Shown: positions 6,397-24,970 of the stretch, in pieces
How the letters are laid out: each line of letters begins with the position of its first letter
How positions within the stretch are numbered: position 1 is the first letter of the stretch
Source of the DNA: a virus
IMG/VR virus record: IMGVR_UViG_3300045988_177309
Span: 1 to 32,169 of that record
DNA length: 32,169 nucleotides
Reading direction: 5' to 3' (one strand)
Notes under the pieces: generated by a model
What the model was told of the DNA's origin: nothing
Databases searched by the model: none
What the model saw: only the letters and a program-made list of their open reading frames with translations
Translations under genes and position numbers: made by a program

Positions 6397-6412
6397 TAGC
6401 ATTGTGTTAAAA

Positions 6413-6452
6413 AGGTTGCGGAAGGCAATAAAGCCTTCCACTTCCTTTTTAA
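6413..6452 (+). terminator. intrinsic terminator after the 5647..6396 gene
   Basis: ggaaggc-aataaa-gccttcc hairpin flanked by an A-run and ttccttttt. Confidence 0.55.
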
Positions 6453-7052
6453 CGAAGTTAATAAAAACCAAGCATTTTCATTAGGCGGCAAATTATATCT
6501 GGGCATTAAAAAATTTTTGGGCGTAAGGCAAAAATTGGATAATGCCTTGCCGCATTTTCCTTTTCCCTTTTGATTATAATATTATTATACAATATATTTT
6601 TATAAAAATAAACTGAAGCCGCGGCGGATTTAATTTGAAAGCGCGCAATTTGACAAGAAAATTTTTTTTCTTTCCTTTTGGAATTTTTGCTTTTTTTTAA
6701 TATTATAACATATTTTTTATAAAAAATCAAAAAATATAAAATGATTGGGTGGTGCCGGGGCGGAATAAAGATAAAATAAAAAAGCTGAGGATGCGTGAGC
6801 ACAACTCAACTTTTATGGGAAAATAGATGCATATGAGGCGAGCCGCTGGATTGAGCAAAAAATCGCCATATGAGGTTTGCGGGGGAAATACCGGAGCCTA
6901 ACAACCGGCTCCGGGACGCTGAAACTTAATTACAGGATTTTTTAGTTGGGGCACTTGAACCGCACTTGCGCAGAAAAAAATTTACAAGTCCTAATTAAAC
7001 TGAAATTCTGGTCGCCATGGCCAAGGGCGACCAGCTGAAAAAAAATAGGGGG

Positions 7053-7217
7053 TTATTCCCCTATGAGCCATTTTTTCAACAGTTCTGCGCATTCATAACA
7101 GTCAATCCCTTCATTGTCTCTTTCGCAATCAAAAGTTAAAGGGCAACAAGCGCAATCATTGAATGATTCTACAAAACTTTGCAAAATAGTATCAAGTCTG
7201 TTTTCATTTACCTGCAT
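7053..7217 (-). CDS. small Cys-rich (CxxC...CxxC) protein, about 54 aa
   Basis: Minus-strand ORF MQVNENRLDTILQSFVESFNDCACCPLTFDCERDNEGIDCYECAELLKKWLIGE with RBS GGAGGTTTGATAATATG. Too short for the track. Confidence 0.4.
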   Translation of the reverse strand: MQVNENRLDTILQSFVESFNDCACCPLTFDCERDNEGIDCYECAELLKKWLIGE

Positions 7218-7506
7218 ATTATCAAACCTCCTTTTGATGATATTATTATAGCACCAATAAATTTATTTGTCAAGCCCCCGCACGCAAAAATATAAAAAAA
7301 GAAGGGATTTTTTTCCCTCCCTTTTGGCTTTACAAAGCTGAATATAACGCGATATATAAGGCAATCTACTATTATCATCTTCCAGATTGAAAAGAGCTTC
7401 TGTTAAAATCTTAACGCCTTTCTTATCCAACTTAAAATTATTCTTATATAATCCTCCATAATATTCACCTTACGCGCGGGGGATTTTACCCCCGCGTTTT
7501 CCTTTC

Positions 7507-7860
7507 TTAAAATTCCGGTATTTTAATCGTGTAAGTTTTTCTAATTGTAACTTCTACACGTTCGGGAACCTGTTTACAGACAAATCTGTCATTTCGCACA
7601 TATTCCCCGATTTCTTCATCTTGCCAACGCTGGCGCGTTTTATCCTCAAAGCGCAATGTGTTATATTTGCTTAACGGCAAATGCCACAAATAAACAAATT
7701 CGCGCTTGCCTATTAGCTTATGTTTATCGGCTTTGCGATAGTTGCGAGTGTGTTCAACTCTGCGCCGCTCAAGATTGTTAGTCGTGCCGACTTTAAGAAT
7801 AAAGTCATCATTTTCATCAAGGTAACAGCCCACATAGAGAAATTCTTTTTCATTATTCAT
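7507..7860 (-). CDS. GIY-YIG-like nuclease domain protein (117 aa)
   Basis: FLYVGCY...ILKVGTTNNLERRRVEH matches the GIY / YIG / R..E(H) spacing of GIY-YIG/T5orf172-type domains. Start overlaps the upstream gene by 8 nt. Confidence 0.5.
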   Translation of the reverse strand: MNNEKEFLYVGCYLDENDDFILKVGTTNNLERRRVEHTRNYRKADKHKLIGKREFVYLWHLPLSKYNTLRFEDKTRQRWQDEEIGEYVRNDRFVCKQVPERVEVTIRKTYTIKIPEF

Positions 7861-8245
7861 CTTTTTTCTTCCTCTTTTGGATTAGATTTATTTCATAAGA
7901 ATTTCCCTCATAGTCAAAGATGACTTGGCGTTCTTCGTTCGTGACTTGGAGACTTTCGACCTTTGCGTTCAGCATTTCCGCAATTAGCGCAATTAATTCA
8001 GCCTTTGCGCCGTTTTTCTTTCTTTCGCGCTTCTGGAATTTGTAATTTGTTCCGGTTTGCTTTTTGTGGTCGCAATTAGTCATTTTTTTAGCAACCTTCT
8101 TTTGATCCGGTGTTAAGTCGTACTCCGTAGGCTTGCCATGTTCGACCGCTTCATCATAGGCCATAACTTCGCGGGCTTCGGCTTCGCTTATGTCCAGCGT
8201 TTTCATTAGATTTTCAAGTTTCGCTTTTTCTTGTTCTTTGGTCAA
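7853..8245 (-). CDS. hypothetical basic protein (130 aa); paralog of 10390..10773
   Basis: Shares ...KTLDISEAEAREV...YD... and ...YKFQKRER... with the 10390..10773 product. Confidence 0.6.
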   Translation of the reverse strand: MTKEQEKAKLENLMKTLDISEAEAREVMAYDEAVEHGKPTEYDLTPDQKKVAKKMTNCDHKKQTGTNYKFQKRERKKNGAKAELIALIAEMLNAKVESLQVTNEERQVIFDYEGNSYEINLIQKRKKKDE

Positions 8246-8287
8246 TGGCTCTCAAACCTCCTTTTGGAGGAAAAGGGGCAAAACCCC

Positions 8288-8662
8288 TTAACCTTCCAAA
8301 CCTTCCTTGGCTTCATCGCTCAGCGTAAAATGCGCCTTACGCTTAACCTCAGTGCGAATGACGATGCCCTCATCCTTCAACTTTTTTACAAGCTGGTTTA
8401 TACGGGAATGGGTTATGCTATCATCATCAAGAGCCTTGACTACTTCGGTAATAGTCATACCATCCTTGGGAGCGTGAAACAGAATAGCCTTGATGCGCTC
8501 GGTAAGGATTTCGTTTTCTTCCTGATGGGCAGTAGGCTTGCGAGTGCTTGAGCTCTTGCGGCTTAGCAGTTCAATTTCATGTTCAATGCCTGCAACAAGG
8601 TCAGGACGAGAAACAACTTCGCTCAGGGTCAGCAGTTCGGTAAACATTTCTTTCTTAGTCAT
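8288..8662 (-). CDS. winged-helix-like DNA-binding protein (124 aa); paralog of 10776..11141
   Basis: MTKKEMFTELL..RPDLVAG.EHE..LL.RK...RKPTA.QEE...ITEV.K.LD....SR.NQL.KK.KD.G....EVKRKA.F is conserved with the 10776..11141 product. Confidence 0.6.
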   Translation of the reverse strand: MTKKEMFTELLTLSEVVSRPDLVAGIEHEIELLSRKSSSTRKPTAHQEENEILTERIKAILFHAPKDGMTITEVVKALDDDSITHSRINQLVKKLKDEGIVIRTEVKRKAHFTLSDEAKEGLEG

Positions 8663-8752
8663 AGTATCAACTCACTTTCTGGTTTTTAAGTGTGTCCTTC
8701 ACTTAATAGTGATGCCCTTGGGAGTAGAACCCTGCTCCCTTGGAACGATTAT

Positions 8753-10362: not shown

Positions 10363-10395
10363 ATAAAAGCCCCTTGCGGGCTTTTGTTTTTATTT
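10363..10395. terminator. bidirectional intrinsic terminator (aaaagcccc-ttgc-ggggctttt)
   Basis: Hairpin with an A-run 5' and a T-run 3'. Lies directly after the minus gene ending at 10390. Confidence 0.65.
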
Positions 10396-10773
10396 TCGCG
10401 GACAACTCAAAGTTATTTTATATTTTACATTATCCAACAGGAAAGAAAATTCTCTTTCCACGTTTGTAATTTCCAGCTTTTCCGCGCCTTTATTCTCAAG
10501 CATTTGCGCCAATGCCGCAATTATTTCTTGCTTTGCCGCATTAGCTCTTCTTTCTCTCTGTTGGAATTTATAGCTTGTTTTTGTGCGCGTAATTGTCATT
10601 TCCTTGGCAATTTTTTTTTGTTCTGCGCTCAATTCGCCCAGCTTTTCCCCTGCGTCTATACGCCTATCATAGTCTAACACCTCTTTTGCCTCTGCCTCTG
10701 AAATTTGCAACGTTTTCATTATCTGCTGGATTTGTGGGGAGCTTGCGTTCCCCACGTTTTTGCGTTGATTCAT
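10390..10773 (-). CDS. hypothetical basic protein (127 aa); paralog of 7853..8245
   Basis: ORF track. Conserved motifs as listed for 7853..8245. Confidence 0.6.
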   Translation of the reverse strand: MNQRKNVGNASSPQIQQIMKTLQISEAEAKEVLDYDRRIDAGEKLGELSAEQKKIAKEMTITRTKTSYKFQQRERRANAAKQEIIAALAQMLENKGAEKLEITNVEREFSFLLDNVKYKITLSCPRK

Positions 10774-10775
10774 GC

Positions 10776-11141
10776 TTACTGCTCAATCGGCTTGTGCTCA
10801 ACTCCTGCGGCGAAAAAGTACGCCTTGCGCTTGACTTCTTCGCGCTCAATCGTTCCGGCGTCCTTGGCCTTCTTGATAAGCTGATTCAATCGGGAATGGC
10901 TCAAATCTGCTATGTCCAGCATCTTGAGAATTTCTGTTACTGTGCGGCCTTCGCCATCACTCAAAATCTCAATGACACGGGCGATTATTTTGTCACCTTC
11001 TTCCTGCTTTGCCGTGGGCTTGCGCGTTGCGTTCTTGCGGTTCAGCAGGTCAAGCTCATGTTCCAGCCCGGCTACAAAGTCGGGGCGCGCCTGAATGGTA
11101 GGCAGATTCAGCAGAGCGGTGAACAGTTCCTTTTTGGTCAT
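10776..11141 (-). CDS. winged-helix-like DNA-binding protein (121 aa); paralog of 8288..8662
   Basis: ORF track. The 29 nt spanning its start/5'UTR (11137-11167) are identical to 8659-8687. Confidence 0.6.
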   Translation of the reverse strand: MTKKELFTALLNLPTIQARPDFVAGLEHELDLLNRKNATRKPTAKQEEGDKIIARVIEILSDGEGRTVTEILKMLDIADLSHSRLNQLIKKAKDAGTIEREEVKRKAYFFAAGVEHKPIEQ

Positions 11142-11264
11142 AGTATCAACTCACTTTCTGGTTTTTTTGACTGTCCTTGTCATTTTTTATCTGAAGGGCA
11201 TTTCCTGCCCTTCAGCTTACGACTTATTATAACATGGGGGGCGTGGTTTTGTCAATAGGTTTTT

Positions 11265-12414: not shown

Positions 12415-12450
12415 AGTGTTCACAATTTTGTCACAATTCAAAAAATGTAT
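12415..12450. promoter_or_regulatory. operator-like repeats GTTCACAATTTTGTCACAATT immediately upstream of minus gene start 12398
   Basis: Variant of the GTNACAATT repeat seen at 10222-10305. Confidence 0.4.
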
Positions 12451-12593
12451 TATTTGTGACGCGATAATACACTATGTATAATTATACAATTGTTAAAAAT
12501 ACTACGATAATTTTTTAACAATAGGGGGTTTCGGGATTGATAATTTTTTATTACAAATGATAAAAAATTATCAGAAATTCCGCCAAAAAATGC

Positions 12594-12634
12594 TTGACAC
12601 AAAGCTCGGCCTGTGCCAACCGCGCACAGGCCGC
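12594..12634 (+). repeat. copy 1 of repeated element: TTGACA-CAAAGCTC-[hairpin ggcctgtgc-caaccgc-gcacaggcc]-GCC
   Basis: Paralogous to 14399-14438. Same flank and loop, different stem with compensatory changes. Preceded by the shared block ggattgataat. Confidence 0.6.
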
Positions 12635-12722
12635 CAACAAAGTCAAGGCCATATATAAAAAATAATAGGCTGTAAATTACTTACAGCTTTTTAATTCAAT
12701 TTTTGTTTTTATTTTTCAAGCT

Positions 12723-13038: not shown

Positions 13039-13509
13039 TCAAAGGTTTTTTGTTTCTGAAACAAAATACTTTGCGCCAACTGCATCAAGTATTGTTTTGG
13101 CTTTCGCGCTCTGCTCTTGAGTTGCGCAAAAACAATTGATAATAAAATATTTATTTATGTCTATCCAATTAAAAGGGATATCTGCCAATTCCAATTGATC
13201 GCGCAAAGCATATAATATTTTTTCATCATGTTTTATGGTGCTTTCAATCTTCCAGAGCATTTCTTTGCGCGCTTTTTCTTCCAATAGCTTAACAAGATAA
13301 ACCCCTATAAAATTTGCCGCCGCGGTGACAGCCATTTTTCCCTCAATGCTAAGCGCGGCATCGCTTGTTAAAAGAATAACATAAGTATAAAAGCCATATG
13401 TTAAAGCATTTATTAAGGCCGCCGCAAGCTTAGAACCTTTAATTGTAATAAGGCTTTTTACTGTTGAAAGAATTACATTGATTATTGTACAAATAGAAAA
13501 CAATATCAT
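13039..13509 (-). CDS. membrane protein (156 aa, 3-4 predicted TM helices in N-terminal half)
   Basis: ORF track. Hydrophobic segments. TGA stop. Confidence 0.55.
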   Translation of the reverse strand: MILFSICTIINVILSTVKSLITIKGSKLAAALINALTYGFYTYVILLTSDAALSIEGKMAVTAAANFIGVYLVKLLEEKARKEMLWKIESTIKHDEKILYALRDQLELADIPFNWIDINKYFIINCFCATQEQSAKAKTILDAVGAKYFVSETKNL

Positions 13510-13599
13510 TAAAAATCACCTACTTTTTTAAGTATTCCTCCAAAAAAGAGAGGGTTAAGAGATTGTCTTTGTTATTCGCCTAGAGTCTCAGCGGTTTTT

Positions 13600-13749
13600 T
13601 TATCCCCCACAAACTGCCGCCAGTAGAATATATAAGAGGTATAAACAACTTGCGCCGCATATGGCTTGTGTTGCGCGTATTGCGAACCATGCGACTGAAC
13701 GCGGGCGAACCTTGAATTTTTTGGTTACAATGTAATCATCATCAAACAT
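13600..13749 (-). CDS. small hydrophobic protein (49 aa)
   Basis: RBS AAGGGAGGAAGAAACAATG. ORF MFDDDYIVTKKFKVRPRSVAWFAIRATQAICGASCLYLLYILLAAVCGG. Confidence 0.4.
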   Translation of the reverse strand: MFDDDYIVTKKFKVRPRSVAWFAIRATQAICGASCLYLLYILLAAVCGG

Positions 13750-13935
13750 TGTTTCTTCCTCCCTTTTGTTTATACCTTATTATACTATTTATTTTATTAT
13801 TTGTCAATAGATATTTTTACAAAAAGATTGTCGAGTTTTTAACAAAGTTTGTCGCTTTAACACGTTAAAGCATTATCACTTTAATGCGCTAAAGTGACGC
13901 TCTAAAAAATAAAAAAAACTTTTTCAAAAAAAGTG

Positions 13936-13964
13936 TTGACAGATTTTAAGTGTTGTGCTATACT
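13936..13964 (+). promoter_or_regulatory. perfect consensus promoter TTGACA-17-TATACT
   Basis: TTGACA 13936-41, TATACT 13959-64. Confidence 0.75.
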
Positions 13965-13970
13965 ATAATT

Positions 13971-14123
13971 GTTCCAAGGGGAGCGCGGTTAGCAGACACC
14001 GTGCAGGGGTTCAGGTAGTAAGTCCCCAAAAGGGCAGTAAAGCCAAGCGAATCGCGTCACAAGGAATCAGTAAGTCGCTCCCAAAGAACAAAAAAGTTGC
14101 TAAATTTTAGCAACTTTTTTTTT
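13971..14123 (+). ncRNA. short structured RNA (about 120-150 nt) between a consensus promoter and an intrinsic terminator; weak resemblance to the domain IV / helix 8 region of small SRP (4.5S) RNA
   Basis: No ORF. Terminal helix GGGAGCG...CGCUCCC. Internal CAGGGGUUCAGGUAGUAAGUCC...GGGCAGUAAAGCCAAG. Terminator gttgctaa-atttt-agcaac + T9 at 14096-14123. Confidence 0.55.
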
Positions 14124-14134
14124 ACACAAAGGTA

Positions 14135-14163
14135 TTGACAAGCTTGCGCAAGTGTGGTATACT
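14135..14163 (+). promoter_or_regulatory. perfect consensus promoter TTGACA-17-TATACT
   Basis: TTGACA 14135-40, TATACT 14158-63. Confidence 0.75.
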
Positions 14164-14272
14164 TGAATGGGATGCTGCTGTCAACAAGACTGACTATTTA
14201 TTAACAATCTCAGTTTCCGCGGCGGAAACCTGTTTCCCAACAGGAAATAGAAAAGATAAGTTAATTTTTTAA
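14164..14272 (+). ncRNA. second short structured RNA (about 105 nt)
   Basis: Two hairpins (gtttccgc-g-gcggaaac; cctgtt-tccca-acagg) followed by a T6 run at 14265-70. No ORF longer than 8 codons. Confidence 0.45.
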
Positions 14273-14398
14273 CAAAGTAAAACTTTTTCGTAACATTTTG
14301 GACTTGTTAAAAAATTAACAATATTTGCCCAATTTTAGGATTGATAATATTTTAACAAAGTTGTCCAAAGTTTGTTAAAAATTTACCACAATAAACTC

Positions 14399-14438
14399 TT
14401 GACATAAGCTCGGTGCGTGTCAACCGCACACGCACCGC
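14399..14438 (+). repeat. copy 2 of repeated element: TTGACA-TAAGCTC-[hairpin ggtgcgtgt-caaccgc-acacgcacc]-GC
   Basis: See 12594-12634. Preceded by the shared block taggattgataat. Confidence 0.6.
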
Positions 14439-15039
14439 TGAATAATATAACTGTATCAACCTCTTTATATAATAATAGCACAGCTTAATAAGTCTCTAAG
14501 CTGTGCTACAGTAACAGTGCAGTATCTACCAAGGAGAGTGTTGCCGTGGCGGCATTGAGCATGTACACAACGTTATATTATTAATGCTCAGTATGTCGAG
14601 CTAAAAGGCTGTTCGCGCAACCTTATTCGCTTGAAGAAAGGAAGTGGAAAATGAATAATCATTAAAAAAATAATTTTCATTTTTTATTTTGTCTGTTGGA
14701 GTAAAACCAAGAGAGAAAGATATTGGAAGAAAAAGCTCTCTTAATTTATATTAGACAGAGCAGACTATATTAAGCAGTATGTTGCTGCATTACTTAATGT
14801 TAGAACCGCAGAAGAGAGAGTAGCTTTGTTATTGCGGCAAGCACAATACTTATAATACGCTCTACTTGTTTTAACAAAAGTCTTCCCCTTATGCTCCTTC
14901 TACATCAACGTTTATATTAGTTATTATGATTGAATGTTAATTAAATAAAGTTAAGTTATTTAATTGTATGCAAGTCTATAGACAAGCTTTGTATGTATTG
15001 TGACACTTGCTACGTCGTGTCACACCAGAAAGGAGGTTA

Positions 15040-15340
15040 AGAAAAAAAAACAAAATAATTTTTCTTTTTACATTATAACGAAGCAATAAAAAACGTTATA
15101 AAATTAATATTAATATTTAATTTATATTTATTATATTTAATTTAATACATTAAAAAGAAATAAATTACTAAAAGAAAATCAAATATTAATTTAAGAAAAG
15201 AATTTAGTTTATACAAAAAAAGAATACATTAAATAATATTTCCTTAATAGATTAATTATATTATACAGTATTTTTTTAATTTTGTCAAATTTTTTATATT
15301 TCTTTTATTCTTATTTGCTGTTGGTGAGTTTGCTGGCAAG
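15040..15340. other. roughly 300-bp extremely AT-rich tract (candidate DNA-unwinding/origin or packaging element)
   Basis: More than 85% A+T by eye, no ORF, sits between structured GC-richer segments. Confidence 0.4.
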
Positions 15341-15651
15341 TGCCGCAAGCACAAGAGTTTCAGGATGTGATTTGAGTTAAATAAGCCGCGGCGGAAGAAA
15401 AGATTTTTCTCTGTTGGCCTATTTTGATTGAAATCAAGGCCGTTAACGATGACTAGGATTATTCTAAGTGGGGGCTGGGGTTGGAGGGTCGCGCGTTCCT
15501 CAGATAAAAAGTCCGTAAGGTTCATGAATGTTTATCTGGTAAAAACTAAAAGAACAAAAGGGGGGTAGTATTTCGGGAAAAAATTTTTTTTGATTTAATA
15601 AAAACGTTTTGCCTGGACAATCTTCTGTCCCCAAGTATTTTTATTTTCAAA

Positions 15652-15798
15652 TTACGATGATTCTTTTTTCTTCTTGGGTCGACCTCTCTTTGGTTTTTCT
15701 CCCCACATAAATTCATATACTCCACTGGTTGCCGCCATAGTGGCCTTTCTCTTCATGTTTGCAGCATAGCTGCCCAAAATTCCACGAGGTTTTCTCAT
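15652..15798 (-). CDS. small basic protein with AT-hook-like motif (KRGRPKKKK), 48 aa
   Basis: ORF MRKPRGILGSYAANMKRKATMAATSGVYEFMWGEKPKRGRPKKKKESS. Upstream hairpin ttgttgaaaag-taaaa-cttttcaacaa. No obvious SD. Confidence 0.3.
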   Translation of the reverse strand: MRKPRGILGSYAANMKRKATMAATSGVYEFMWGEKPKRGRPKKKKESS

Positions 15799-15905
15799 AA
15801 AAAATATTGTTGAAAAGTTTTACTTTTCAACAAATCTCCTTTCTTATTTTTTATATATAAATTATATACTATTTTTAAAATTTTATCAATTTTTACAATT
15901 TTTAC

Positions 15906-15934
15906 TTGACATTGCGCTTTTTTCATGCTATAAT
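15906..15934 (+). promoter_or_regulatory. perfect consensus promoter TTGACA-17-TATAAT heading the recoded structural operon
   Basis: TTGACA 15906-11, TATAAT 15929-34. Leader has two hairpins, then RBS AAAGGAGG. Confidence 0.75.
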
Positions 15935-16000
15935 AAAGTAAGACTTAGAGTAAAGTCTAAAATTTCGGAGCGAGGCTCCGAAAGGAGGTTCTAAAAAACT

Positions 16001-17075
16001 TTTGATAAAATTAGATTATTCTTTAGAAACTCCAGAAGAAAGAGTACAATTAGTAGAGCAAATTTTGGCTGAATAGCCTAATCCTCCTCAAAAATACATA
16101 GAAATTTTAACTGATTATCTAGTTATGTGCATGGAGCGTCAAGAACGCCGTGAGCGCAAAATATTAACTGAGAATCGTTTGGCGACAGTTAATAAACGTG
16201 AAACCTCTTTTGAAGGTCTTGTATCACAACTAGAAAGTGGCGAAGATGGAATCTATAATCTCATTCATGAAAATAAGAACCAAATATTTAAACCAAAAGT
16301 AAGAATAACAAAAAAAGACATTGAAGAAATACCCGAACTCCAACAAATAAGAGATTCCATTGAATTTTGGGAAAAAAAGGCAAAAACCGCACAAGGTCGC
16401 GAAGCATTTATTATACGAAAAACAATTATTGAATTGCGCAAAGATCAATACCTTGTGAAAGACTCTTTCCGATAGCCCATTCAAGCAAGTTCAACCGCGC
16501 ATTCACGTGGTATCTATAAACTTACTTATGATGATAAAACTTGCAATTTTGATGAAGAAGGATATCCAATTCCTTCTGGTCTCTCTCTTTTGGATCCAAA
16601 CATTTGTTCGACAATCTTATGTTTATATTCTAAATTAAAACAAGATGGTTATAGTGAATTCATTGGTGATTTATACTATCTTATGGAAGATTTTGATAAA
16701 ATTTCTATTATTGCGCTTGCGCCTTATCCTATTTATCAAAAATTAGTATTATATAAAATAGATGGCCGACAAAACGCTGAAATACAAAATTTATTACAAA
16801 CAGAATTTGGTATTACTCATAGTCTTGAATACCTTTCGAGTCTTTGGCGTAATAAAATTCCTAAATTAATAGCCAGTGCCGCAGAAGATCAATATCTTGA
16901 ATGGTATTACCTTAATGCTGAAAAAGGCAAATATAAAAGATGTAGCTGCTGTGGACAAATTAAATTAGCTCATAATAAATATTTTTCTAAAAATAAAACT
17001 AGCAAAGATGGTTATTACAGCATTTGTAAAAAATGTCGCAATGCTAAAAGTAAAAAAAGAAAAAGGAAGAAATAA
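16001..17075 (+). CDS. hypothetical protein with C-terminal Zn-ribbon (CSCCGQ...CKKC) and basic tail; 1 in-frame TAG
   Basis: Track ORFs 16125..16475 and 16590..17075 share a frame through the TAG at 16473. The frame stays open upstream to a TTG at about 16001, 11 nt after AAAGGAGG. The start is uncertain and may be 16125. Confidence 0.5.
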
Positions 17076-17078
17076 TTT

Positions 17079-18266
17079 ATGAGCGAGTTACATTATTGTA
17101 AAAAATGTAATCGAACCATGAATGGGGAACAATTTTATTCTTCTAACAATTTAGAAAAATACCCTGATAATGGTAAATTTGATATTTGCAAGAAATGTAT
17201 GACTATGCATGTAGATAATTGGGATCCAAACACTTACCTTTGGATCCTAGAAGAAGCTGACGTGCCTTATGTTCCCGATGAATGGAATAAATTGATGGCA
17301 AAGTATGCCAATAATCCAGAAAAATTAACTGGTATGACTATTCTAGGGCGTTATCTCTCTAAAATGAAACTTAAACAATTTAGAGATTATCGATGGAAAG
17401 ATACCGCTTTCTTGCAAGAATTGACACAAAGTAAAATTGAGCAAACAATGAAACGCTCCGGTTATGATGCTTAGCAAATTGCCGAAGCTATTAATAAGGT
17501 TACTTTTACTTTTGATGAACATTATGAATAGCCTCCAATTCCTGCTTCGAATGAATGTAGTGAATCTGAAGATTATTTTGACCAATAGAATGATATTTCT
17601 ATTCCAGAAGAAACGTTTGATTTAACCGACGAAGAAAAATTAATGTTGCGTCTTAAATGGGGAAAAACTTATAAACCAGAAGAATGGATTAAACTTGAAC
17701 AATTATATAATGAATTTCTTTAGTCTTATGATATTCAAAGCGCAGGACATATTGATACTCTTAAATTGATATGCAAAACCTCTCTTAAAGCCAATTAGTT
17801 AATCGATATTGGAGATGTAGAAGGTTTTCAAAAAATGAGCCGGGTGTATGATAATTTAATGAAGAGCGGTAAGTTTACTGCTGCTCAAAACAAAGCCGAA
17901 TCTGGGGAATATGTAAATTCAATTTCTGAACTTGTTACTTTATGTGAATAGCAAGGTTTTATTCCTCGTTATTATGTATCTACACCGCAAGATAAAGTTG
18001 ATGAAACTTTATAGGATACTAAAAATTATGTGCGGACTTTAGTTACCGAAGAAATGAACTTAGGTAATTTAATTGAATCTTCAATACGCACAATGAATTA
18101 TGAAGAAAATAAAGAAGAAGATGAAGATATCGAAGATGAAATAATGGAAGATGTAGTTCCTGAAATTACTGATGAAGACTTCATGGAGCAAGAGGAATTT
18201 CTTGAGTCTGAACAAGAGAAAGATGCGCGATTGACTGAAGAATTGGCCTTGGGCAAAAATAATTAA
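17079..18266 (+). CDS. hypothetical protein (N-terminal CxxC...CxxC, acidic C-terminus); 7 in-frame TAGs
   Basis: Track ORFs 17079..17474 and 18030..18266 share a frame. The frame stays open through TAGs at about 17473, 17528, 17585, 17720, 17798, 17949 and 18010, with no TAA or TGA. TAA at 18264-66. Confidence 0.6.
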
Positions 18267-18937
18267 TGGCATTACAAGAACTTTTAAATTTATAGTCTCG
18301 ATACAATAAATTAGGGCTTTCTGAAGAGCGCGTAACTGCAATTCTTCCAGTAGTGCGTGAATATGTAGCATTCTGGCGTGAATACCCAGATATGTTTATT
18401 GATTTCCTTTTGGAAGCGGGGAACCCTTAGAATTTTCATCTTTATTTTTATCAACGAGTATTTTTACGTGCGGCAATGCGGCATAAATATGTGTATGCAG
18501 TTTACCCGCGCGCCTATTCAAAATCGTTTCTTGCAATTATGATTTTAATGATACGTTGCATTCTCTATCCCAAGTGTAAACTTTTCGTTACTTCGGGTGG
18601 TAAAGAATAGGCGGCTGGTATCATAAAGGAAAAAGTACAAGAAATATGTAATCTTATTCCAGCAATGGATAAAGAAATAGATTATCGACCTGGTCAAACT
18701 AGATTTATTAAAGACCAAACTACAATAGTATTTAAAAATGGCTCTTATTTTGATAATATTGCAGCGCGTGAAACCTCTCGTGGTAAACGTCGTCATGGTG
18801 GAGTCATAGAAGAATGTGTTGGAGTCGATGGCGATATACTGTCCCAAGTTATTATTCCCACAATGAACATTTCACGTATGTGTATGGATGGAACAACATA
18901 GCCTGAAGAAACGCTCAATAAGTCCCAAATTTATGTT
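18266..18937 (+). CDS. terL: terminase large subunit, exon 1 (ATPase domain)
   Basis: ATG overlaps the upstream TAA (TAATG). ...AVYPRAYSKSFLAIM... (deviant Walker A) ...ETLNKSQIYV coupling motif. In-frame TAGs. The frame then degenerates and hits TAA at 19007, so the exon must end near 18937. Confidence 0.65.
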
Positions 18938-19530
18938 AATTTTTTGGTCATTTTACGTTACTTAAATGTATTAATTTTAAAGAGAAAAAAGCCCATTCTA
19001 CCATTATAAAATCTAAAAGAAAGCTTACGCAAGAACAAGTTTTTATGATTTATGTAAATAATGAATAGAATATTATTCCAAAAACATATCTTTGTAATAT
19101 GTTTAATATCACTAGTAATACAATTTATACTATTTTAAATCAAAAATCTTATCAAGATTATTGGCAAGATTATCAAAAATTAACGAATGATCAAAAAGAA
19201 CAATTAGCATCATTGTTGCGAAAGCAACAACAGCAAACCCCTTGAATTGCTGGGAAGCCCTAAAAAATAGGGTAATCAGCAGCCAAGCCTTGAATAAAGG
19301 AAGGTTCAACGACTATCTCAATATGAGAGTAGAGGCAAGCGTCTCGAAGTGGGGGGCCCTTAGCAGGTAAAGCTGAAGGTGAAGATATAGTCTTTTCTAT
19401 ATAGTAATATATAGCAGTTCATAAGAGAACGTATTTAATTTAGCGAATTAAATAGAAAAATAAAGAACAACTGCGGGATACAAAAACACATATGCTTATG
19501 ATAAACTTATTTAGTTGTTAGTTTGGTAGA
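18938..19530 (+). mobile_element. group I (IA-like) self-splicing intron interrupting terL; boundaries approximate
   Basis: P GAATTGCTGGGAAGC 19245-59. P5 hairpin ccct-aaaaaat-aggg. Q AATCAGCAGCC 19274-84. P6 ccttgaataaaagg. R GTTCAACGACTA 19304-15. P8 tctca-ata-tgaga. S AAGATATAGTC 19382-92 (GACUA:UAGUC P7). P9 ctatata-gtaa-tatatag. All in canonical order. Confidence 0.7.
19045..19245 (+). CDS. intron-internal ORF, HTH-like (possible degenerate homing-endonuclease DNA-binding module); contains 1 in-frame TAG
   Basis: Frame differs from both exons. MIYVNNE(Q)NIIPKTYLCNMFNITSNTIYTILNQKSY... resembles a NUMOD/HTH motif. TGA stop at 19243-45. Confidence 0.25.
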
Positions 19531-20525
19531 TCGTAAGACCAGAACGTTCAATTATTCTCGGAGGTACTTACCGCATCCCAGTTCTTATGAAGCTTCTGGA
19601 TAAAAGCTTTGTTCAAGACTTGCGTATGGATGGTACCTTTAATGAAAGTGCATTTTAGCGAGAATATGAGTCGAAATGGTCTGGCACAGTAGAGGATGCA
19701 TTCTTTAATCCAGAAGTTTTTGAACGTAATCGCATTCTTAATCAGCCAGAATATGAACTTTCTGGACGTGCATCAAAACAATCTTATTATGTGCTTTCTG
19801 TGGATGTTGGTCGCAAACAATGCGACACTGTTGTTTGCGTTTTTAATGTCATTCCATAGTAGCAAGGTACATCAATAAAAAAATTGGTTAACATATTTGT
19901 ATTAACTGATGAACATTTTGAAGATCAAGCAATAAGATTAAAGCAATTATATTATAAATTTAAAGCACGTCGTATTGTAATTGATGCGAATGGATTAGGT
20001 ATTGGACTTGTAGATTATATGATAAAAACTCAAGTTAACCCTGAAACAAATGAAACTTATTATGATTTTGGTGTTTATAATGATGAAGATAATTATTACA
20101 AAAAATATAGAACCATTTTCACAGAACAAGATGCAATGTATTTAATTAAAGCTAATGCGCCATTAAATACTGATGCTCATGCGAATGCACAATCTTAGCT
20201 ATCTTCTGGAAAAGTAAAATTTTTAATTGATGTTCAAACAGCCAAAGCGAAATTGCTTAATACAAAAGTTGGCCAAAATATGAGTCCTGAACAAAGGACA
20301 GATTATTTAAAACCATTTAATTACACTTCCATATTAAAAGAAGAAATGTTGAATCTTCGTGAAGAAAATGAAGGTATTAATATTAATTTAAAACAAATAA
20401 ATCGCGGAATACGAAAAGACAAATTTTCTGCGTTTGAATATGGGTTATATTATATTAAACATGAAGAAGATGACAAGAAAAAACGTAAAAGATTTAATGC
20501 AAAAGATTGGGCTTTTTTTAATTAA
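19530..20525 (+). CDS. terL: terminase large subunit, exon 2 (linker + RNaseH-like nuclease domain)
   Basis: ...FQREYESKWSGTVEDAFFNP... then ...YYVLSVDVGRKQCDTVVCVFN... and IVIDANGLGIGLVDYM. In-frame TAGs at about 19656, 19857-62 (double) and 20196. Track ORFs 19884.. and 20253..20525 share the frame. TAA at 20523-25. Confidence 0.7.
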
Positions 20526-20634
20526 AGGAGAAATAAAATATGAAAAGTTTTGCAGTAATAGCCAATAAAGCTATTAGAAGTTTTGATACGACTATATTAA
20601 ATTATACTGATATTGCTATGAGGTATTATCAACA

Positions 20635-20994
20635 GTGCGAGCTTCACGAGCGGAAATTAAAATTGAAGAAATCCTGCGTGACGCAGGTTTAAATTTTAAA
20701 ATGGAGTATATTTTTCCTGATTTAAAAAGTCCCAATGGACGTCCTTTGCGTTTTGATTTTGTTGTTTTTGATGATGATGGACGTATTGATTTTATTATTG
20801 AATATTAGGGTAAACAACATTACCAACCAAGTAGTAAATTTGGTGGTAAACGAGGTTTTTATCAACAACAATATAATGATAATCAAAAGCGTCGATTTTG
20901 CGCTTTGCATGATTTTAATTTAATAGAGATTCCGTATAATGAAGAAAATCTCATTTCTTATGATTATATTATGAATAAGGCCTACGGCTGGTGA
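20635..20994 (+). CDS. small endonuclease-like protein (restriction-endonuclease-fold/Vsr-like motif ...RFDFVVFDDDGRIDFIIEY-Q-GKQHY...LIEIPY); 1 in-frame TAG
   Basis: Frame opens after the TGA at 20608-10. Candidate starts are GTG 20635 or ATG 20701. TAG sits inside the conserved E-Y-x-G-x-Q-H block. TGA stop overlaps the portal RBS GAAGGAGGTG. Confidence 0.5.
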
Positions 20995-21008
20995 AGGAGG
21001 TGCGTAAT

Positions 21009-22616
21009 TTGGATAAATCCCGAACCTAGCAAATTCATGATAAAGGTTTTGCAATGGTTGATGGATACGCCTATTATCGCACAGACGCACCTAATGAATA
21101 TAAGAAAATTCGTATTGGAGTAAAATCTGTTGAAGACGCTGTGCTTCAACTAGGTTCTTATTGCCCTAATCCAAAAGATAAAGGTAATCATGGTCCTGCC
21201 ATTAATAAAGGCATGATTATTAAAGCTTTAATGGAACATGATGTTAAAGAATAGCGGAGAATTTCTAATCTTTTTTATGAAATAAATGGTATTTATCAAA
21301 AAGTATGTAATTATTTTGCTTATCTTTATCGTTATGATTGGTATGTAGATCCAAAAGTTTATGAAGATGCCAATGTTGAGAAAGTCTTAAAAAACTTTGC
21401 TAGTGTATTAGATTTTCTTGATAAATCTTATATTAAAAAAGTGTGTGGCGATATAGCTTTAGAAGTAGTTAAAAGTGGCGCCTATTATGGATATATTGTT
21501 AATATAAACAAAAGCTTAGTATTACAATAGCTGCCGACTGATTACTGCCGCTCCCGTTATAATGTTGGTTCAACTCCTGCAATAGAATTTGATATGAGAT
21601 ATTTTGATACGTTTAGAGATACTAATTATCGTATGCGTATCTTAAAGTTATTTCCTGATGAATTCTCAAAAGGATATTTACTTTATAAATAGGGTAAATT
21701 ACAACCTGACTTTGCTGGAGATAATTAGGGAAGTTGGTATTTACTTGAACCAGAAAATACTATAAAATTTAATTTATTGCATCATGATTTACCAATGTTT
21801 GTGAATGCAATTCCTGCGATTCTTGATTTGGATGCCGCCCAAGACTTAGACCGCAAGAAACAAATGCAGCAATTATTAAAAATTGTTGTACAAAAATTGC
21901 CACGAGACAAAAATGGTGATTTAATATTTGATGTTGAAGAAGCTAGAGATATACACAACAATGCAGTAGAAATGTTGCGTCGTGCTGTTGGAGTTGATGT
22001 TTTAACAACATTTACAGATGTTGATTCTATTGATATGTCTGATAAAAATACTTCAACCACTAAAGATGATTTAGAAAAAGTTGAACGCACTGTTTATAAT
22101 GCATTAGGTATTTCGCGCAATTTGTTTAATACGGATGGCAATTTATCTTTGGAAAAATCAATTCTTAATGATGAATCTTCTATGCGTAAATTATTGCTTC
22201 AATTTGAACAATTCTTTGATCGTATTATAAGTCAAAAATATAAAAATAGTAAATGTATTTTTAATTTTTGTATGTTAGAAACGACTCAATATAATTATAA
22301 AGAATTAGCAAAATTATATAAAGAACAATCTTAGATTGGTTTCTCAAAGATGTTACCTTAGATTGCTCTTGGACATTCTTAGAGTTTCATTTTGAATTCT
22401 GCCCACTTTGAGAATGATATATTAAAGTTATATGAAATTATGATTCCTCCGCTTATGAGTTCTACTATGAGTAGTGATTTAATTTTGGGTAACAAAGAGC
22501 AAAGTAATTAGACAAAAAATCAAACAAATTAGGATAGTAAAGAAATTGGTCGTCCAGAAAAATCTGATGACCAAAAGAGCGAAAAAACTATCTAGAATAA
22601 AGAATCTATGAGTTAA
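21009..22616 (+). CDS. portal protein (putative, about 535 aa); at least 10 in-frame TAGs
   Basis: Track ORFs 21054..21254 and 21777..22334 share a frame that stays open from TTG 21009 (5 nt after GGAGGTG) to TAA 22614-16. Synteny: terL, nuclease, this gene, scaffold. Size is typical of portals. Confidence 0.55.
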
Positions 22617-22628
22617 GGAGGAATATTA

Positions 22629-24167: not shown

Positions 24168-24188
24168 TAGTTTTAAGGAGGATAAACA

Positions 24189-24953: not shown

Positions 24954-24970
24954 GAAAGGAGAAAAATATA

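What the first reader, a model, noticed from the sequence alone, without database searches (positions are those of the whole stretch)
13750..16000. 2.2-kb noncoding hub between the two transcription polarities, with a structured 600-nt segment and a 300-bp near-pure AT tract
Besides the two sRNAs and the repeat, 14440-15040 is ORF-free yet GC-balanced and full of long-range complementarity. Examples are gcacagctta/taagctgtgc, gtgacac/gtgtcac and several GNRA-like loops. It ends in a strong AGGAGG with no gene behind it. 15040-15340 is more than 85% AT, a DUE-like tract. 15340-15560 is again GC-rich and structured. Together this looks like an origin/packaging/regulatory region or a large unannotated ncRNA (possibly an intron or ribozyme relic) rather than spacer DNA.
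Basis: partly seen in the sequence, partly recalled or inferred. Interest (0 to 1): 0.5.

Follow-up and report, generated by a model that had tools for sequence, protein, structure and literature searches.

The report
Phage early/late noncoding control hub
The gene-poor 2.2 kb between the early and late genes of a large gut/rumen phage that reads TAG as an amino acid is a conserved control region; its core is a predicted ~850-base non-coding, hairpin-rich early transcript that starts in a nearly pure A/T tract, a layout most like transcript-dependent phage replication origins, though that function is untested.

Summary
14440-15040 has no conserved ORF under the standard, TAG-sense or TGA-sense codes. 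15040-15340 is 85.7% AT and is the only stretch that AT-rich in the window. The AGGAGG at 15031-15036 has no start codon behind it in any of five relatives.

The region is not fully noncoding and not one element.

Its core is a leftward, early-direction unit:
- a perfect promoter (15288>15260) inside a 140-bp block that is 96-99% identical in relatives whose silent sites are only 64-95% identical;
- then a freely drifting AT tract;
- then a roughly 600-nt chain of hairpins (10-11 pairs changed on both sides);
- then a hairpin (14437-14411) from a multi-copy family of early-strand terminators.

No Rfam family matches. There are no DnaA boxes. The core occurs only in one close clade.

The best reading (about 0.37) is a transcript-dependent origin like that of lactococcal phage c2, or like T4 promoter-plus-unwinding-element origins. 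A regulatory or antisense RNA hub is nearly as likely. The intron or ribozyme relic, packaging-site and hidden-gene readings are not supported. The folded strand is undecided.

The parts
13779..13807 (-). Consensus sigma-70-type promoter (TTGACA-17-TATAAT). It drives the first ORF of the main leftward gene block (49 aa, about 13749>13600). It is the second early-direction promoter bounding the noncoding stretch.
13826..13905 (.). Cluster of short repeats: TTTTTAACAAAGTTTG, and GCTAAAG / CTTTAATG inverted repeats. Operator-like. The 13855-13896 motif recurs twice at about 90% identity in the distant relative L037.
13936..14122 (+). Small RNA 1. Promoter at 13936-13964 (TTGACA-17-TATACT with TG), a roughly 105-nt folded body, and a bidirectional terminator at 14090-14120.
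   Evidence: z = -4.9; 87% identical in L002
14135..14259 (+). Second rightward promoter (14135-14163, extended -10) and its 5' hairpins (GTTTCCGCGGCGGAAAC and others). In L002 a different extended -10 promoter sits just upstream of the same conserved hairpins.
14260..14388 (.). AT-rich perfect or near-perfect palindromes: 14260-14275 with 14304-14319, and 14342-14362 with 14368-14388. They are part of a TTAACAA/TTGTTAA cluster: 8 of the window's 17 copies lie in 1.1 kb (binomial p = 3e-8). Operator or iteron candidates. A paralogous copy lies at 12480-12580.
14411..14437 (-). GC-rich stem-loop (CGGTGCGTGT / CAACCGC / ACACGCACCG). It belongs to a multi-copy family of leftward intrinsic terminators. 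Here the U-tail is degenerate (AGCUUAUGU). It is the predicted 3' end of the noncoding early transcript. The paralog is at 12609-12635.
   Evidence: (119/119 Watson-Crick pairs, 2-3 pair types per position)
14441..15040 (-). Chain of about 12 local hairpins, the 'structured 600 nt'. It includes the terminator-like hairpin 14475-14509 and the hairpin 15001-15024. It is under purifying selection but tolerates indels. The window itself lacks 15, 21 and 23 nt that relatives have. The strand of the functional fold is undecided.
15031..15036 (+). AGGAGG with no ORF behind it. The invariant context is CAGAAAGGAGGT. It is predicted to be one arm of a helix with CTCCTTCT (14895-14902) that closes the last hairpin domain. 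On the minus strand it reads ACCUCCUUUCU.
15041..15160 (.). Left half of the AT tract (10% GC). Its sequence drifts at the neutral rate but stays AT-rich. It contains an 11-bp-period ATTTATATTTA x3.5 repeat. This is the DNA-unwinding-element candidate.
15161..15300 (-). Ultra-conserved AT-rich block, 96-99% identical in all close relatives. It holds the perfect leftward promoter (-35 at 15288-15283, -10 at 15265-15260, start about 15253) and the first ~90 nt of its transcript.
15301..15565 (.). Conserved block, G-rich on the plus strand (core GGGGGCTGGGGTTGGAGGG...GTCCGTAAGGTTCA). Neither coding nor unusually structured. The minus ORF is broken in L030. The plus ORF has no codon periodicity (6/7/9) and a shifting C-terminal frame.
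15560..15650 (+). Single-copy sequence motif: G6 - N - CGGGA6T8 - AAAACGTTTT - CCAA(A)T-rich. It is conserved on the same strand upstream of the sigma-like gene even in distant relatives. It has no consensus RNA structure. In L037 it is followed by three tandem 26-nt repeats.
15652..15798 (-). Real 48-aa gene: MRKPRGILGSYAANMKRKATMAATSGVYEFMWGEKPKRGRPKKKKESS. The C-terminus is AT-hook-like (RGRP flanked by basic residues).
   Evidence: variable sites 3/4/24 by codon position
15861..15934 (.). Back-to-back promoters. The leftward one (15889>15861, TTGATA-17-TATAAT) serves the 48-aa gene. The rightward one (15906-15934, TTGACA-17-TATAAT with TG) serves the late operon.
15935..16004 (+). Leader, Shine-Dalgarno (15983-15988) and TTG start (16002) of the sigma-factor-like first gene of the TAG-recoded right arm. 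Its first in-frame TAG is at 16074-16076.

Best explanation
The hub is the divergent early/late control region of a ~115-176-kb TAG-recoded phage associated with Clostridia.

Its core is a discrete early-direction (leftward) noncoding transcription unit. A perfect host-type promoter at 15288>15260 starts an RNA at about 15253. The RNA runs through about 210 nt of 89% A/T, then through a roughly 600-nt chain of conserved hairpins. It ends at the terminator-like hairpins 14509-14475 and 14437-14411, giving about 850 nt.

I propose that this unit acts in cis as a transcription-dependent replication origin. Transcription from the strong early promoter opens the AT tract or leaves an RNA-DNA hybrid there, as at a T4-type promoter plus downstream unwinding element. 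Alternatively the folded transcript serves as primer or activator, as with the PE1-T transcript of lactococcal phage c2. Rightward promoters at 14135 and about 14269 converge on the unit and could modulate it. So could the adjacent AT-hook-like 48-aa protein.

Read from sequence and comparison: the promoters, the terminator family membership, the absence of genes, the conservation pattern and the hairpin covariation. Inferred only: that the RNA is actually made, which strand folds, and any role in replication.
For: - Position: between the standard-code leftward genes and the TAG-recoded rightward late genes.
- Promoter: 12/12 consensus, invariant, inside a 140-bp block 96-99% identical to relatives whose four-fold sites are only 64-95% identical.
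- AT tract directly downstream: the unique GC minimum of the window. Its distal half evolves at the neutral rate while staying AT-rich, as expected if only ease of melting matters.
- The 600-nt segment is more conserved than silent sites: 0.76-0.81 against 0.64 for L002, and 0.90-0.95 against 0.83-0.85 for L031 and L034.
- 10-11 pairs changed on both sides, against about 4 +/- 1.6 in shuffles and 0-3 when slid.
- The 3' boundary hairpin belongs to a strand-specific family of GC stem plus U-tail terminators of leftward transcription.
- No conserved ORF or usable RBS under three codes.
- The core blocks occur only in the close clade and have no detectable similarity in more distant relatives. 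PMC7150918 reports the same pattern for c2, bIL67 and 923 origin types.
- Per PMC7150918, c2-type origins lie between the early and late clusters, are noncoding, are flanked by the first two early promoters, and depend on a noncoding structured PE1 transcript.
Against: - There is no expression, replication or coverage data. Every promoter and terminator is a consensus prediction.
- The terminal hairpin has a degenerate U-tail in this clade.
- The strand of the fold is unresolved. MFE z-scores favour minus (-5.3 against -3.0). The RNAalifold covariation term (-3.84 against +0.32) and the wobble asymmetry (plus 24 G.U to 12 A.C; minus 18 to 21) lean to plus.
- Covariation rests on only about three independent lineages, and the structure was derived from the same sequences.
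- The window itself has lost 15, 21 and 23 nt, including one hairpin arm, so parts are dispensable.
- No replication initiator gene was recognised nearby, and there are no DnaA boxes.
- The cumulative GC-skew minimum at about 14000-14500 is confounded by the switch in gene orientation.
- An AU-rich RNA makes a weak RNA-DNA hybrid.
- Another early promoter and a gene (15889; 48 aa) lie upstream, so the promoter at 15288 is not strictly the first early promoter.
Confidence: 0.37

Rival explanations
1. A regulatory RNA hub. The ~850-nt leftward RNA and the converging rightward RNAs (from 14135 and about 14269) act as long noncoding or antisense regulators. They would work by transcriptional interference, by double-stranded RNA formation, or by base-pairing or protein sponging in trans. 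Their job would be to time the switch from standard-code early genes to TAG-recoded late genes. Replication would not be involved.
For: - Face-to-face consensus promoters with about 1.1 kb of overlap.
- A rightward promoter is kept upstream of the same conserved hairpins in L002 even after a 1-kb insertion.
- Two neighbouring small RNAs have their own promoters and terminators.
- The first ~90 nt of the leftward RNA are ultra-conserved, like a seed or operator region.
- Hairpin covariation.
- The invariant CAGAAAGGAGG / CCUCCUUUCUG motif could engage ribosomes or Shine-Dalgarno sequences.
- The first late gene needs TAG suppression.
Against: - No target complementarity was found inside the window beyond promoter look-alikes.
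- No Rfam family matches.
- The element is confined to one clade, although the early/late switch is common to all relatives.
- The window carries deletions in the hairpin chain.
- This reading does not explain the neutral but compositionally maintained AT tract.
Confidence: 0.3
2. An ordinary crowded intergenic region. It would be a pile-up of promoters, operators, terminators and RNA-stabilising hairpins that serve the flanking genes, with an AT-rich bent or UP-element tract. The hairpin chain would be only accumulated terminator or insulator hairpins between convergent and divergent units, and the long RNA would have no function of its own.
For: - Promoter-like and terminator-like sites are enriched: 29 against 12.9 +/- 3.8, and 8 against 2.0 +/- 1.6.
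- At least one hairpin is a family terminator, and another is terminator-like.
- Hairpin arms can be lost.
- Both strands fit the covariation equally well, as expected for DNA-level inverted repeats or bidirectional terminators.
- Enterococcus phage VRE9_3 has a comparable ~1-kb gene-poor, palindrome-rich strand-switch region.
- L002 shows that the hub accepts gene insertions.
Against: - 600 nt of hairpins far exceeds what termination needs.
- Most hairpins lack U-tails on either strand.
- Conservation above the silent-site rate extends across loops and linkers.
- The 140-bp block is more conserved than the late-operon promoters: 0.96-0.99 against 0.88.
- A 12/12 promoter pointing into 850 nt of nothing would be wasteful.
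Confidence: 0.2
3. A packaging (pac or cos) or other single-copy protein-binding site. The best candidate is the G6...CGGGA6T8...AAAACGTTTT motif at 15560-15650, or the ultra-conserved block 15161-15300, lying upstream of the operon that encodes terminase.
For: - The motif is single-copy in the window.
- It is conserved in position and strand in relatives whose sigma-like protein is 49-66% identical.
- It has no RNA structure.
- In L037 it is followed by three 26-nt tandem repeats.
- G-rich sites in AT-rich genomes are typical of cohesive ends (my own recollection, not tested).
Against: - All nine contigs that carry the motif run through it; none ends there.
- Contigs that do end near the hub stop in repeated promoter sequence.
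- The terminase genes lie about 2.6 kb or more to the right.
- This reading does not account for the hairpin chain.
Confidence: 0.06
4. A hidden or recoded small gene, or the relic of an intron, ribozyme or known large RNA, explains the structure and the orphan AGGAGG.
For: - The phage recodes TAG.
- It carries a genuine group I intron elsewhere.
- A 132-codon TAG-sense frame exists in the window at 14352-14750 on the minus strand.
Against: - That frame is broken in all four relatives. No frame is conserved under three codes.
- No start codon follows AGGAGG in any relative.
- The 15449 ORF lacks codon periodicity, and the 15525 ORF has a stop in L030.
- Rfam finds nothing at E <= 10 (window) or E <= 5 (L031) beyond noise.
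Confidence: 0.04

Closest known systems
Replication origin of lactococcal prolate (c2-type, Ceduovirus) phages, with its noncoding PE1-T transcript
   Same: - Lies between divergently transcribed early and late gene clusters.
- Noncoding, with no usable RBS after the promoter.
- Bounded by early-direction promoters.
- A strong early promoter makes a structured noncoding RNA that ends at a terminator.
- Highly conserved within a type, with no similarity between types (PMC7150918).
   Different: - About 1.5 kb against about 0.5 kb.
- Contains rightward small-RNA genes, a 260-bp AT tract and an extra early promoter plus a 48-aa gene upstream.
- No sequence similarity: blastn against 50,697 phage records found nothing.
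- Function untested here. The host and phage group are unrelated: a ~115-176-kb TAG-recoded phage against 22-kb dairy phages.
Promoter-plus-downstream-unwinding-element origins (T4 oriF/oriG R-loop origins; T7 primary origin).
   Same: A strong promoter is followed directly by an AT-rich tract whose composition is maintained rather than its sequence.
   Different: - The tract is about 210-260 bp, against about 50-60 bp.
- It is followed by 600 nt of conserved hairpins, which those origins lack.
- The promoter is host sigma-70 type, not phage-specific.
- R-loop formation is untested.
ColE1-type RNA II / RNA I priming and antisense control. From my own knowledge.
   Same: A long, multi-hairpin noncoding transcript and converging transcription from the opposite strand, near an easily melted region.
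   Different: No similarity and no RNase H-type G-rich/C-rich switch identified. This is a phage, not a plasmid. It is unknown which strand would be the primer.
Large ornate noncoding RNAs of phages and Firmicutes (ROOL, GOLLD, OLE, HEARO) and self-splicing introns
   Same: Several hundred nucleotides, ORF-free, multi-hairpin, in a rumen/gut phage lineage.
   Different: - No covariance-model match at any threshold.
- Mostly simple local hairpins rather than multi-junction or pseudoknotted architecture.
- Confined to one narrow clade, and tolerant of deletions.
Gene-poor strand-switch region of Enterococcus phages VRE9_3 / EF1 (cultured relatives; sigma-like protein about 39% identical)
   Same: About 1 kb without credible genes at the point where gene orientation flips. 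It is dense in palindromes (ATAACA-NN-TGTTAT x4 and others) and consensus promoters.
   Different: - No sequence similarity.
- No long AT tract or long hairpin chain seen.
- A 620-aa gene separates it from the sigma-factor gene.
- Unannotated and unstudied.

Membership tests
c2-type transcript-dependent phage origin | Located in the intergenic region between divergently oriented early and late gene modules | tested here: met
   Leftward standard-code genes end at about 13749. Rightward TAG-recoded late genes start at 16002.
c2-type transcript-dependent phage origin | Noncoding sequence flanked by the first two early promoters (PE1, PE2) | tested here: inconclusive
   Leftward consensus promoters at 15288 and 13807 flank 1.45 kb without conserved ORFs. 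However, a further leftward promoter (15889) with a 48-aa gene lies upstream, and two rightward small-RNA units lie inside.
c2-type transcript-dependent phage origin | No ORF of 100 bp or more and no RBS downstream of PE1; the transcript is structured and ends at a terminator | tested here: met
   - No conserved frame under three codes.
- The only SD-like motif has no start codon.
- Hairpin chain with covariation.
- Family terminator at 14437-14411.
All are predictions from sequence.
c2-type transcript-dependent phage origin | Supports replication of a plasmid; the transcript is essential in cis | not testable with these tools
   Needs cloning and replication assays.
c2-type transcript-dependent phage origin | Sequence similarity to the c2, bIL67 or 923 origin types | tested here: not met
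   blastn (word 11) of 13500-16100 against 50,697 phage records gave no match. Hence 'works like', not 'is a member of'.
Promoter + downstream DUE (T4/T7-type) origin | Strong promoter immediately followed by an AT-rich, easily melted tract | tested here: met
   A 12/12 promoter at 15288>15260 is followed by 10-11% GC down to 15041. This is the unique GC minimum of the window.
Promoter + downstream DUE (T4/T7-type) origin | Persistent RNA-DNA hybrid, or priming of leading-strand synthesis | not testable with these tools
   Needs R-loop mapping or replication-intermediate analysis.
DnaA / iteron (theta-type) origin | Cluster of DnaA boxes | tested here: not met
   TTATCCACA with one mismatch or fewer: 13 matches in the window (9.2 expected), none between 13750 and 16000.
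DnaA / iteron (theta-type) origin | Iterons next to the AT-rich tract, with an initiator gene nearby | tested here: inconclusive
   TTAACAA/TTGTTAA is clustered (8 of 17 copies in 13800-14900; p = 3e-8), but about 700 nt from the AT tract. No initiator was recognised among neighbouring proteins.
Known structured RNA families (group I/II introns, RNase P, OLE, ROOL, GOLLD, HEARO, riboswitches) | Match to the family covariance model | tested here: not met
   Nothing in the hub at gathering score. The best E-value hits (1-7) are miRNA, snoRNA or ctRNA noise. Positive control: the group I intron at 19192-19414 scored 92.7 bits.
Rho-independent terminators (for hairpin 14411-14437) | GC-rich perfect stem followed by a U-rich tail on the transcribed strand; intergenic, strand-specific, with stems covarying freely | tested here: met
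   - 13 distinct versions gave 119/119 Watson-Crick pairs.
- There were 63 covariance-model matches. All full-length matches below E = 1e-3 except one (L022) are on the same strand; the other opposite-strand rows are weak partial echoes of the same stems.
- Tails average 6.2 U in 12 nt on the minus strand.
- In the window's own copy the tail is degenerate (AGCUUAUGU).
Protein-coding gene | Open frame kept in relatives, with substitutions concentrated at third codon positions | tested here: not met
   - For 14170-15565, no frame is kept.
- ORF 15525>15256 has a stop in L030.
- ORF 15449-15565 has variable sites 6/7/9.
- By contrast, 15798>15652 meets the test with 3/4/24.

The most novel reading that the evidence does not exclude
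The ~850-nt unit is a new family of large early phage noncoding RNA with a function of its own beyond priming. One example: an RNA whose invariant ACCUCCUUUCU (identical to the 3' end of Firmicute 16S rRNA as I recall it) or its complement AGAAAGGAGGU titrates Shine-Dalgarno sequences or ribosomes. That could help gate the hand-over from standard-code early translation to TAG-recoded late translation.
Probability: 0.12. Interest if true: 0.7.

Novelty: new variant of a known kind. Interest (0 to 1): 0.4.

Why it matters
Large stop-codon-recoded gut and rumen phages are known almost only from metagenomes. Nothing is known about where they start replication or how they time the switch between genetic codes.

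This hub gives concrete, testable coordinates:
- an invariant early promoter;
- an unwinding-prone tract;
- a covarying hairpin RNA;
- a single-copy conserved motif;
- an adjacent AT-hook-like protein.

If it is the origin, it would extend the transcript-dependent origin design from 22-kb dairy phages to ~150-kb recoded phages and provide a part for building replicons. If it is a regulatory RNA, it would be a handle on code-switch timing. Either way, it shows that such 'empty' stretches should not be filled with spurious small ORFs during annotation.

Tried and rejected
- **Known RNA families.** I scanned Rfam on the whole window at gathering scores, on 13400-16200 at E <= 10, and on the fuller L031 version at E <= 5. 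Only noise was found in the hub.
- **tRNA or tmRNA.** None in the window.
- **Hidden genes.** I tested standard, TAG-sense and TGA-sense frames against four relatives; none is kept. I first took the minus ORF 15525>15256 and then the plus ORF 15449-15565 seriously. The first has a stop in L030. The second has no codon periodicity and a shifting frame.
- **The CTTGACA + CGG-hairpin module.** I first read it on the plus strand as a promoter, operator or nut-like element or a small-RNA gene. A covariance-model search showed it is a multi-copy family whose minus-strand reading is a stem plus U-tail, that is, a terminator. I withdrew the plus-strand reading.
- **DNA pattern scans of IMG/VR with conserved 17-19-mers.** These returned only the known relative plus chance hits with no flanking similarity.
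- **DnaA boxes.** None in the hub.
- **Block 15560-15650 as an RNA terminator or structure.** There is no consensus structure.
- **Cos-site idea.** Contigs run through the motif.
- **Strand assignment.** Wobble asymmetry and z-scores give conflicting, weak signals.
- **Neighbouring proteins.** Pfam and PHROGs gave no replication initiator.
- **Literature on genome ends.** A search using 'Schiekvirus' as a term returned a paper on Enterococcus phage iF6 (a myovirus with long terminal repeats), not on the EF1/VRE9 relatives; nothing usable came of it.


Full report
**Context**

With TAG read as sense, the plus strand from about 15954 onward becomes a continuous run of long ORFs. The minus-strand ORFs on the left need no recoding. 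The right-arm ORFs are:
- a sigma-factor-like protein (phrog_5767);
- a phrog_3314 protein;
- a terminase split by a group I intron;
- portal and further head and tail genes.

The window is therefore part of a large TAG-recoded phage. Relatives sit on contigs of 115-176 kb. The finding lies exactly where leftward standard-code genes and rightward recoded genes diverge.

The portal is 40% identical to the gut phage phAss-1 (TAG-recoded; PMC10607447) and about 31% identical to Enterococcus phages EF1 and VRE9. Two relatives are binned in Clostridium and Clostridia MAGs. That is only a weak pointer to the host.

**Checking the observation**

Confirmed points:
- No ORF of 60 aa or more lies between 13509 and 15256.
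- GC is 0.338 in 14440-15040. It is 0.143 in 15040-15340, the only sub-16% stretch in 32 kb. It is 0.425 in 15340-15560.
- The quoted inverted repeats are there.
- 14400-15045 folds better than shuffles on both strands: z = -3.0 and -5.3.
- The AGGAGG at 15031-15036 has no start codon at a usable distance.

Points that need correction:
- 15300-15610 is no better folded than shuffles (z = -0.09).
- The region contains a genuine 48-aa gene on the minus strand (15798>15652). Six homologues vary at 3, 4 and 24 sites in codon positions 1, 2 and 3.

**Relatives**

The sigma-like protein retrieved 24 viral, 28 metagenomic and 3 MAG loci. The whole hub is alignable only in a close clade:

| Locus | Nucleotide identity to the hub |
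|---|---|
| L030 | 95% |
| L031, L034 | about 86% |
| L059 | about 87.5% |
| L002 | 77%, with a 1-kb gene-bearing insertion |
| L032 | about 84.5%, right part only |

nhmmer profiles of the individual blocks find 14441-15565 nowhere else. Two elements recur in relatives whose sigma-like protein is only 46-66% identical: the hairpin module at about 14400 and the motif at 15560-15650.

**A neutral yardstick**

I used four-fold degenerate sites of the adjacent genes as a neutral yardstick. All values are identity to the window.

| Segment | L030 | L031 | L034 | L002 | Reading |
|---|---|---|---|---|---|
| Four-fold degenerate sites | 0.95 | 0.83 | 0.85 | 0.64 | yardstick |
| 14441-15040 | 0.96-0.99 | 0.91-0.95 | 0.90-0.95 | 0.76-0.81 | constrained, but with 15-35 indel columns |
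| 15041-15160 | 0.97 | 0.81 | 0.80 | 0.65 | neutral, yet still about 10% GC |
| 15161-15300 | 0.98 | 0.98 | 0.99 | 0.96 | tighter than codon positions 1+2 of the genes |
| 15301-15565 | 0.94-0.97 | 0.91-0.93 | 0.91-0.94 | 0.86-0.87 | constrained |

The 'AT tract' is therefore two things. One half is ultra-conserved. The other half is maintained only in composition.

**No hidden gene**

- The 132-codon TAG-sense frame of the window is broken in all relatives. A TGA-sense frame open in three relatives is in a different frame in L002 and has junk-like content.
- The minus ORF 15525>15256 has a stop in L030.
- The plus ORF 15449-15565 is intact in six sequences, but it varies at 6, 7 and 9 sites by codon position. 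Its frame after codon 39 differs among relatives. Its conservation is at the nucleotide level.
- No relative has a start codon after the invariant CAGAAAGGAGGT.

**Transcription signals**

The region has 29 promoter-like sites, against 12.9 +/- 3.8 in shuffles. It has 8 terminator-like sites, against 2.0 +/- 1.6. The strongest promoters are:

| Direction | Position | Hexamers |
|---|---|---|
| leftward | 13807>13779 | 12/12 |
| rightward | 13936-13964 | 11/12, with TG |
| rightward | 14135-14163 | 11/12, with TG |
| leftward | 15288>15260 | 12/12 |
| leftward | 15889>15861 | 11/12 |
| rightward | 15906-15934 | 12/12, with TG |

The 15288 promoter lies in the ultra-conserved block and points into the AT tract and the hairpin chain.

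**The hairpin at 14411-14437**

This hairpin has two fully compensated pairs in L002. It has a paralogue at 12609-12635 with the same loop and four more compensated pairs.

I first read its conserved flank (CTTGACAYAAAGCTCGG) as a plus-strand signal. A covariance model built from eight versions then found 63 matches in 34 sources. There are two per close relative and up to eight in L017. All full-length matches below E = 1e-3 lie on the same strand except one (L022). The other opposite-strand rows are weak partial echoes of the same stems.

Read on the minus strand, each is a perfect GC-rich stem followed by a U-rich tail. In 13 distinct versions, 119 of 119 pairs are Watson-Crick. Tails average 6.2 U in the next 12 nt. 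They are intrinsic terminators of leftward transcription.

This delimits a leftward unit. It starts at about 15253. It runs through about 210 nt of 89% AT and then about 600 nt of hairpins. It passes the terminator-like hairpin 14509-14475 and ends at the family terminator 14437-14411, giving about 850 nt. In this clade the U-tail is degenerate (AGCUUAUGU), so termination may be leaky. The next stop is the bidirectional terminator at 14122-14090.

**Is the hairpin chain a selected structure?**

On the five-sequence alignment, the RNAalifold consensus has 183 pairs on the plus strand and 192 on the minus strand.
- 11 (plus) or 10 (minus) pairs changed on both sides. Column-preserving shuffles give about 4 +/- 1.6, with 0 of 500 reaching the observed number. 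Slid registers give 0-3.
- There are caveats. Only about three lineages are independent, and the structure was derived from the same sequences.
- Most helices are local hairpins. The one notable longer-range helix pairs CTCCTTCT (14895-14902) with the AGAAAGGAG of the orphan Shine-Dalgarno motif and closes the last domain. This gives the motif a structural explanation.
- The window lacks 15, 21 and 23 nt that its relatives have, including the 5' arm of one hairpin. Individual hairpins are therefore dispensable.

**Which strand folds?**

The evidence conflicts.
- The promoter-terminator architecture and the MFE z-scores favour the minus strand.
- The RNAalifold covariation term is -3.84 on plus and +0.32 on minus.
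- The ratio of wobble-compatible to wobble-incompatible variants is 24:12 on plus and 18:21 on minus. Both measures lean to the plus strand.
- A rightward promoter is also conserved in function. In L002, after the 1-kb insertion, a different extended -10 promoter sits just upstream of the same conserved hairpins.

Convergent transcription over about 1.1 kb is therefore likely. I leave the strand open.

- Rfam found nothing here at permissive thresholds, on the window and on the fuller L031 version. It found the group I intron at 19192-19414 at 92.7 bits.
- There are no DnaA boxes in the hub.
- The cumulative GC skew has a local minimum at about 14000-14500, but this coincides with the flip in gene orientation.
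- TTAACAA/TTGTTAA is strongly clustered at 13800-14900: 8 of 17 copies, p = 3e-8. It forms perfect AT-rich palindromes that could be operators or iterons.

**Interpretation**

The anatomy has six features:
1. a strong early-direction promoter;
2. an unwinding-prone tract right behind it;
3. a long structured noncoding transcript ending at a terminator;
4. a position between the early and late clusters;
5. no ORF or RBS;
6. strong conservation within a clade with no similarity outside it.

This matches the description of the c2-type lactococcal origins and their PE1-T transcript (PMC7150918). The promoter-plus-DUE part matches T4 and T7 origins as I remember them. I therefore rank a transcript-dependent origin first, at about 0.37.

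It is a functional analogy, not membership. There is no sequence similarity to any deposited phage. The defining replication assay cannot be done here.

A regulatory or antisense RNA hub that times the early-to-late (standard-to-recoded) switch is nearly as plausible, at about 0.30. A merely crowded promoter and terminator region gets about 0.20. A packaging site gets about 0.06. A hidden gene or RNA relic gets about 0.04.

**Unexplained**

Three things remain unexplained:
- the 140-bp ultra-conserved AT-rich block beyond the promoter itself;
- the conserved G-rich block 15301-15565;
- the single-copy G6...CGGGA6T8...AAAACGTTTT motif. It is conserved across distant relatives and has no RNA structure. 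In L037 it is followed by three 26-nt tandem repeats.

The neighbouring 48-aa protein ends in KRGRPKKKK, an AT-hook-like motif. It is an obvious but untested candidate for binding these AT-rich sites.

Noticed in passing
window 15954-32169 (+); first TAG at 16074-16076: The right-arm genes carry many in-frame TAG codons and become long ORFs only if TAG is sense. The left-arm genes do not need this. The first late gene (sigma-factor-like, phrog_5767) has a perfect host-type promoter but a TAG at codon 25, so its translation would wait for a suppressor. No tRNA gene lies in the window.
   Followed up: partly
window 19192-19414 (+): Group I intron (Rfam RF00028, 92.7 bits). It splits the terminase large-subunit reading frame (18263-19009 / 19464-20525). 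An 87% identical stretch of about 76 nt occurs in Vibrio phages K470, K412 and K460.
   Followed up: no
window 13971-14122 (+): Small RNA 1 has its own promoter and a bidirectional terminator, and folds well (z = -4.9). It carries three copies of (C)AGUAA(A)G in loops or linkers. It is 87% identical in L002 and matches no Rfam family.
   Followed up: partly
window 12444-12700; loci L010, L012, L015, L017, L018, L035: This concerns the leftward terminator family (model R1). In several relatives a rightward TTGACA-17-TATAAT promoter abuts the hairpin, so a plus-strand transcript would start at the hairpin. In others the U-tail is followed by GUCAA. This is possibly a terminator/antisense-promoter module. 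The window's second copy (12609-12635) sits in a unit with a rightward promoter (about 12444-12472) and a terminator (12668-12695).
   Followed up: partly
window 15560-15650; L037 5603-5747; L015 about 5355-5500: A single-copy motif: G6, CGGGA6T8, AAAACGTTTT, CCAAAT-rich. It is conserved on one strand upstream of the sigma-like gene in relatives whose sigma-like protein is 49-66% identical. It has no RNA structure. L037 adds three tandem 26-nt repeats (TACCAAATATTTTTTTAAAACGATTT), and L015 has two TTTTAAAAAACGA copies. It looks like a protein-binding site or iteron array of unknown role.
   Followed up: partly
window 13855-13896; L037 91-180: The motif GTTAAAGCATTATCACTTTAATGCGCTAAAGTGA (inverted and direct YTAAAG units) recurs twice at 87-90% identity in the distant relative L037. 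It also recurs, duplicated, in L002 (6440-6475 and 7150-7215). It is probably a conserved operator.
   Followed up: no
L002 7155-8080, between window positions about 14196 and 14197: L002 has a roughly 1-kb insertion inside the hub carrying at least one ORF on each strand with their own promoters. The hub tolerates gene insertion, and a new promoter restores rightward transcription of the conserved hairpins.
   Followed up: partly
window 7853-8671 and 10390-11150 (-): A two-gene cassette is duplicated in the early arm. 8288-8671 is paralogous to 10776-11150, and 7853-8251 to 10390-10782. Neither has a PHROG or Pfam match.
   Followed up: no
window 15799-15845 (-): The Shine-Dalgarno (GGAG) of the 48-aa gene lies about 40 nt upstream of its ATG. 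A 12-bp hairpin (15807-15833) lies between them and would bring them together. L031 and L034 lack the hairpin and have a directly adjacent AAAGG. L002 has a different hairpin.
   Followed up: no
window 6400-7500: A second gene-poor stretch with a turn in cumulative GC skew and another 12/12 leftward promoter (7273). It may be a similar control region.
   Followed up: no
L058 (Enterococcus phage VRE9_3, PP680569.1) 2500-3550: The cultured relative has a roughly 1-kb strand-switch region annotated only with 30-40-aa low-score ORFs. It holds ATAACA-NN-TGTTAT x4, GTAAGCGCTTAC x2 and TGTGAAAYATTTCACA x2. It is probably an unannotated control or origin region.
   Followed up: partly
contig ends of L001, L013, L014, L033 (40-102 nt upstream of the sigma-like gene) and L032 (window about 15225): Several independent assemblies break in or next to the hub. 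The break points lie in promoter sequences that are repeated within the genome (for example 15257-15293 resembles 15858-15894 and 1926-1992). Assembly repeats are a likelier cause than physical genome ends.
   Followed up: partly
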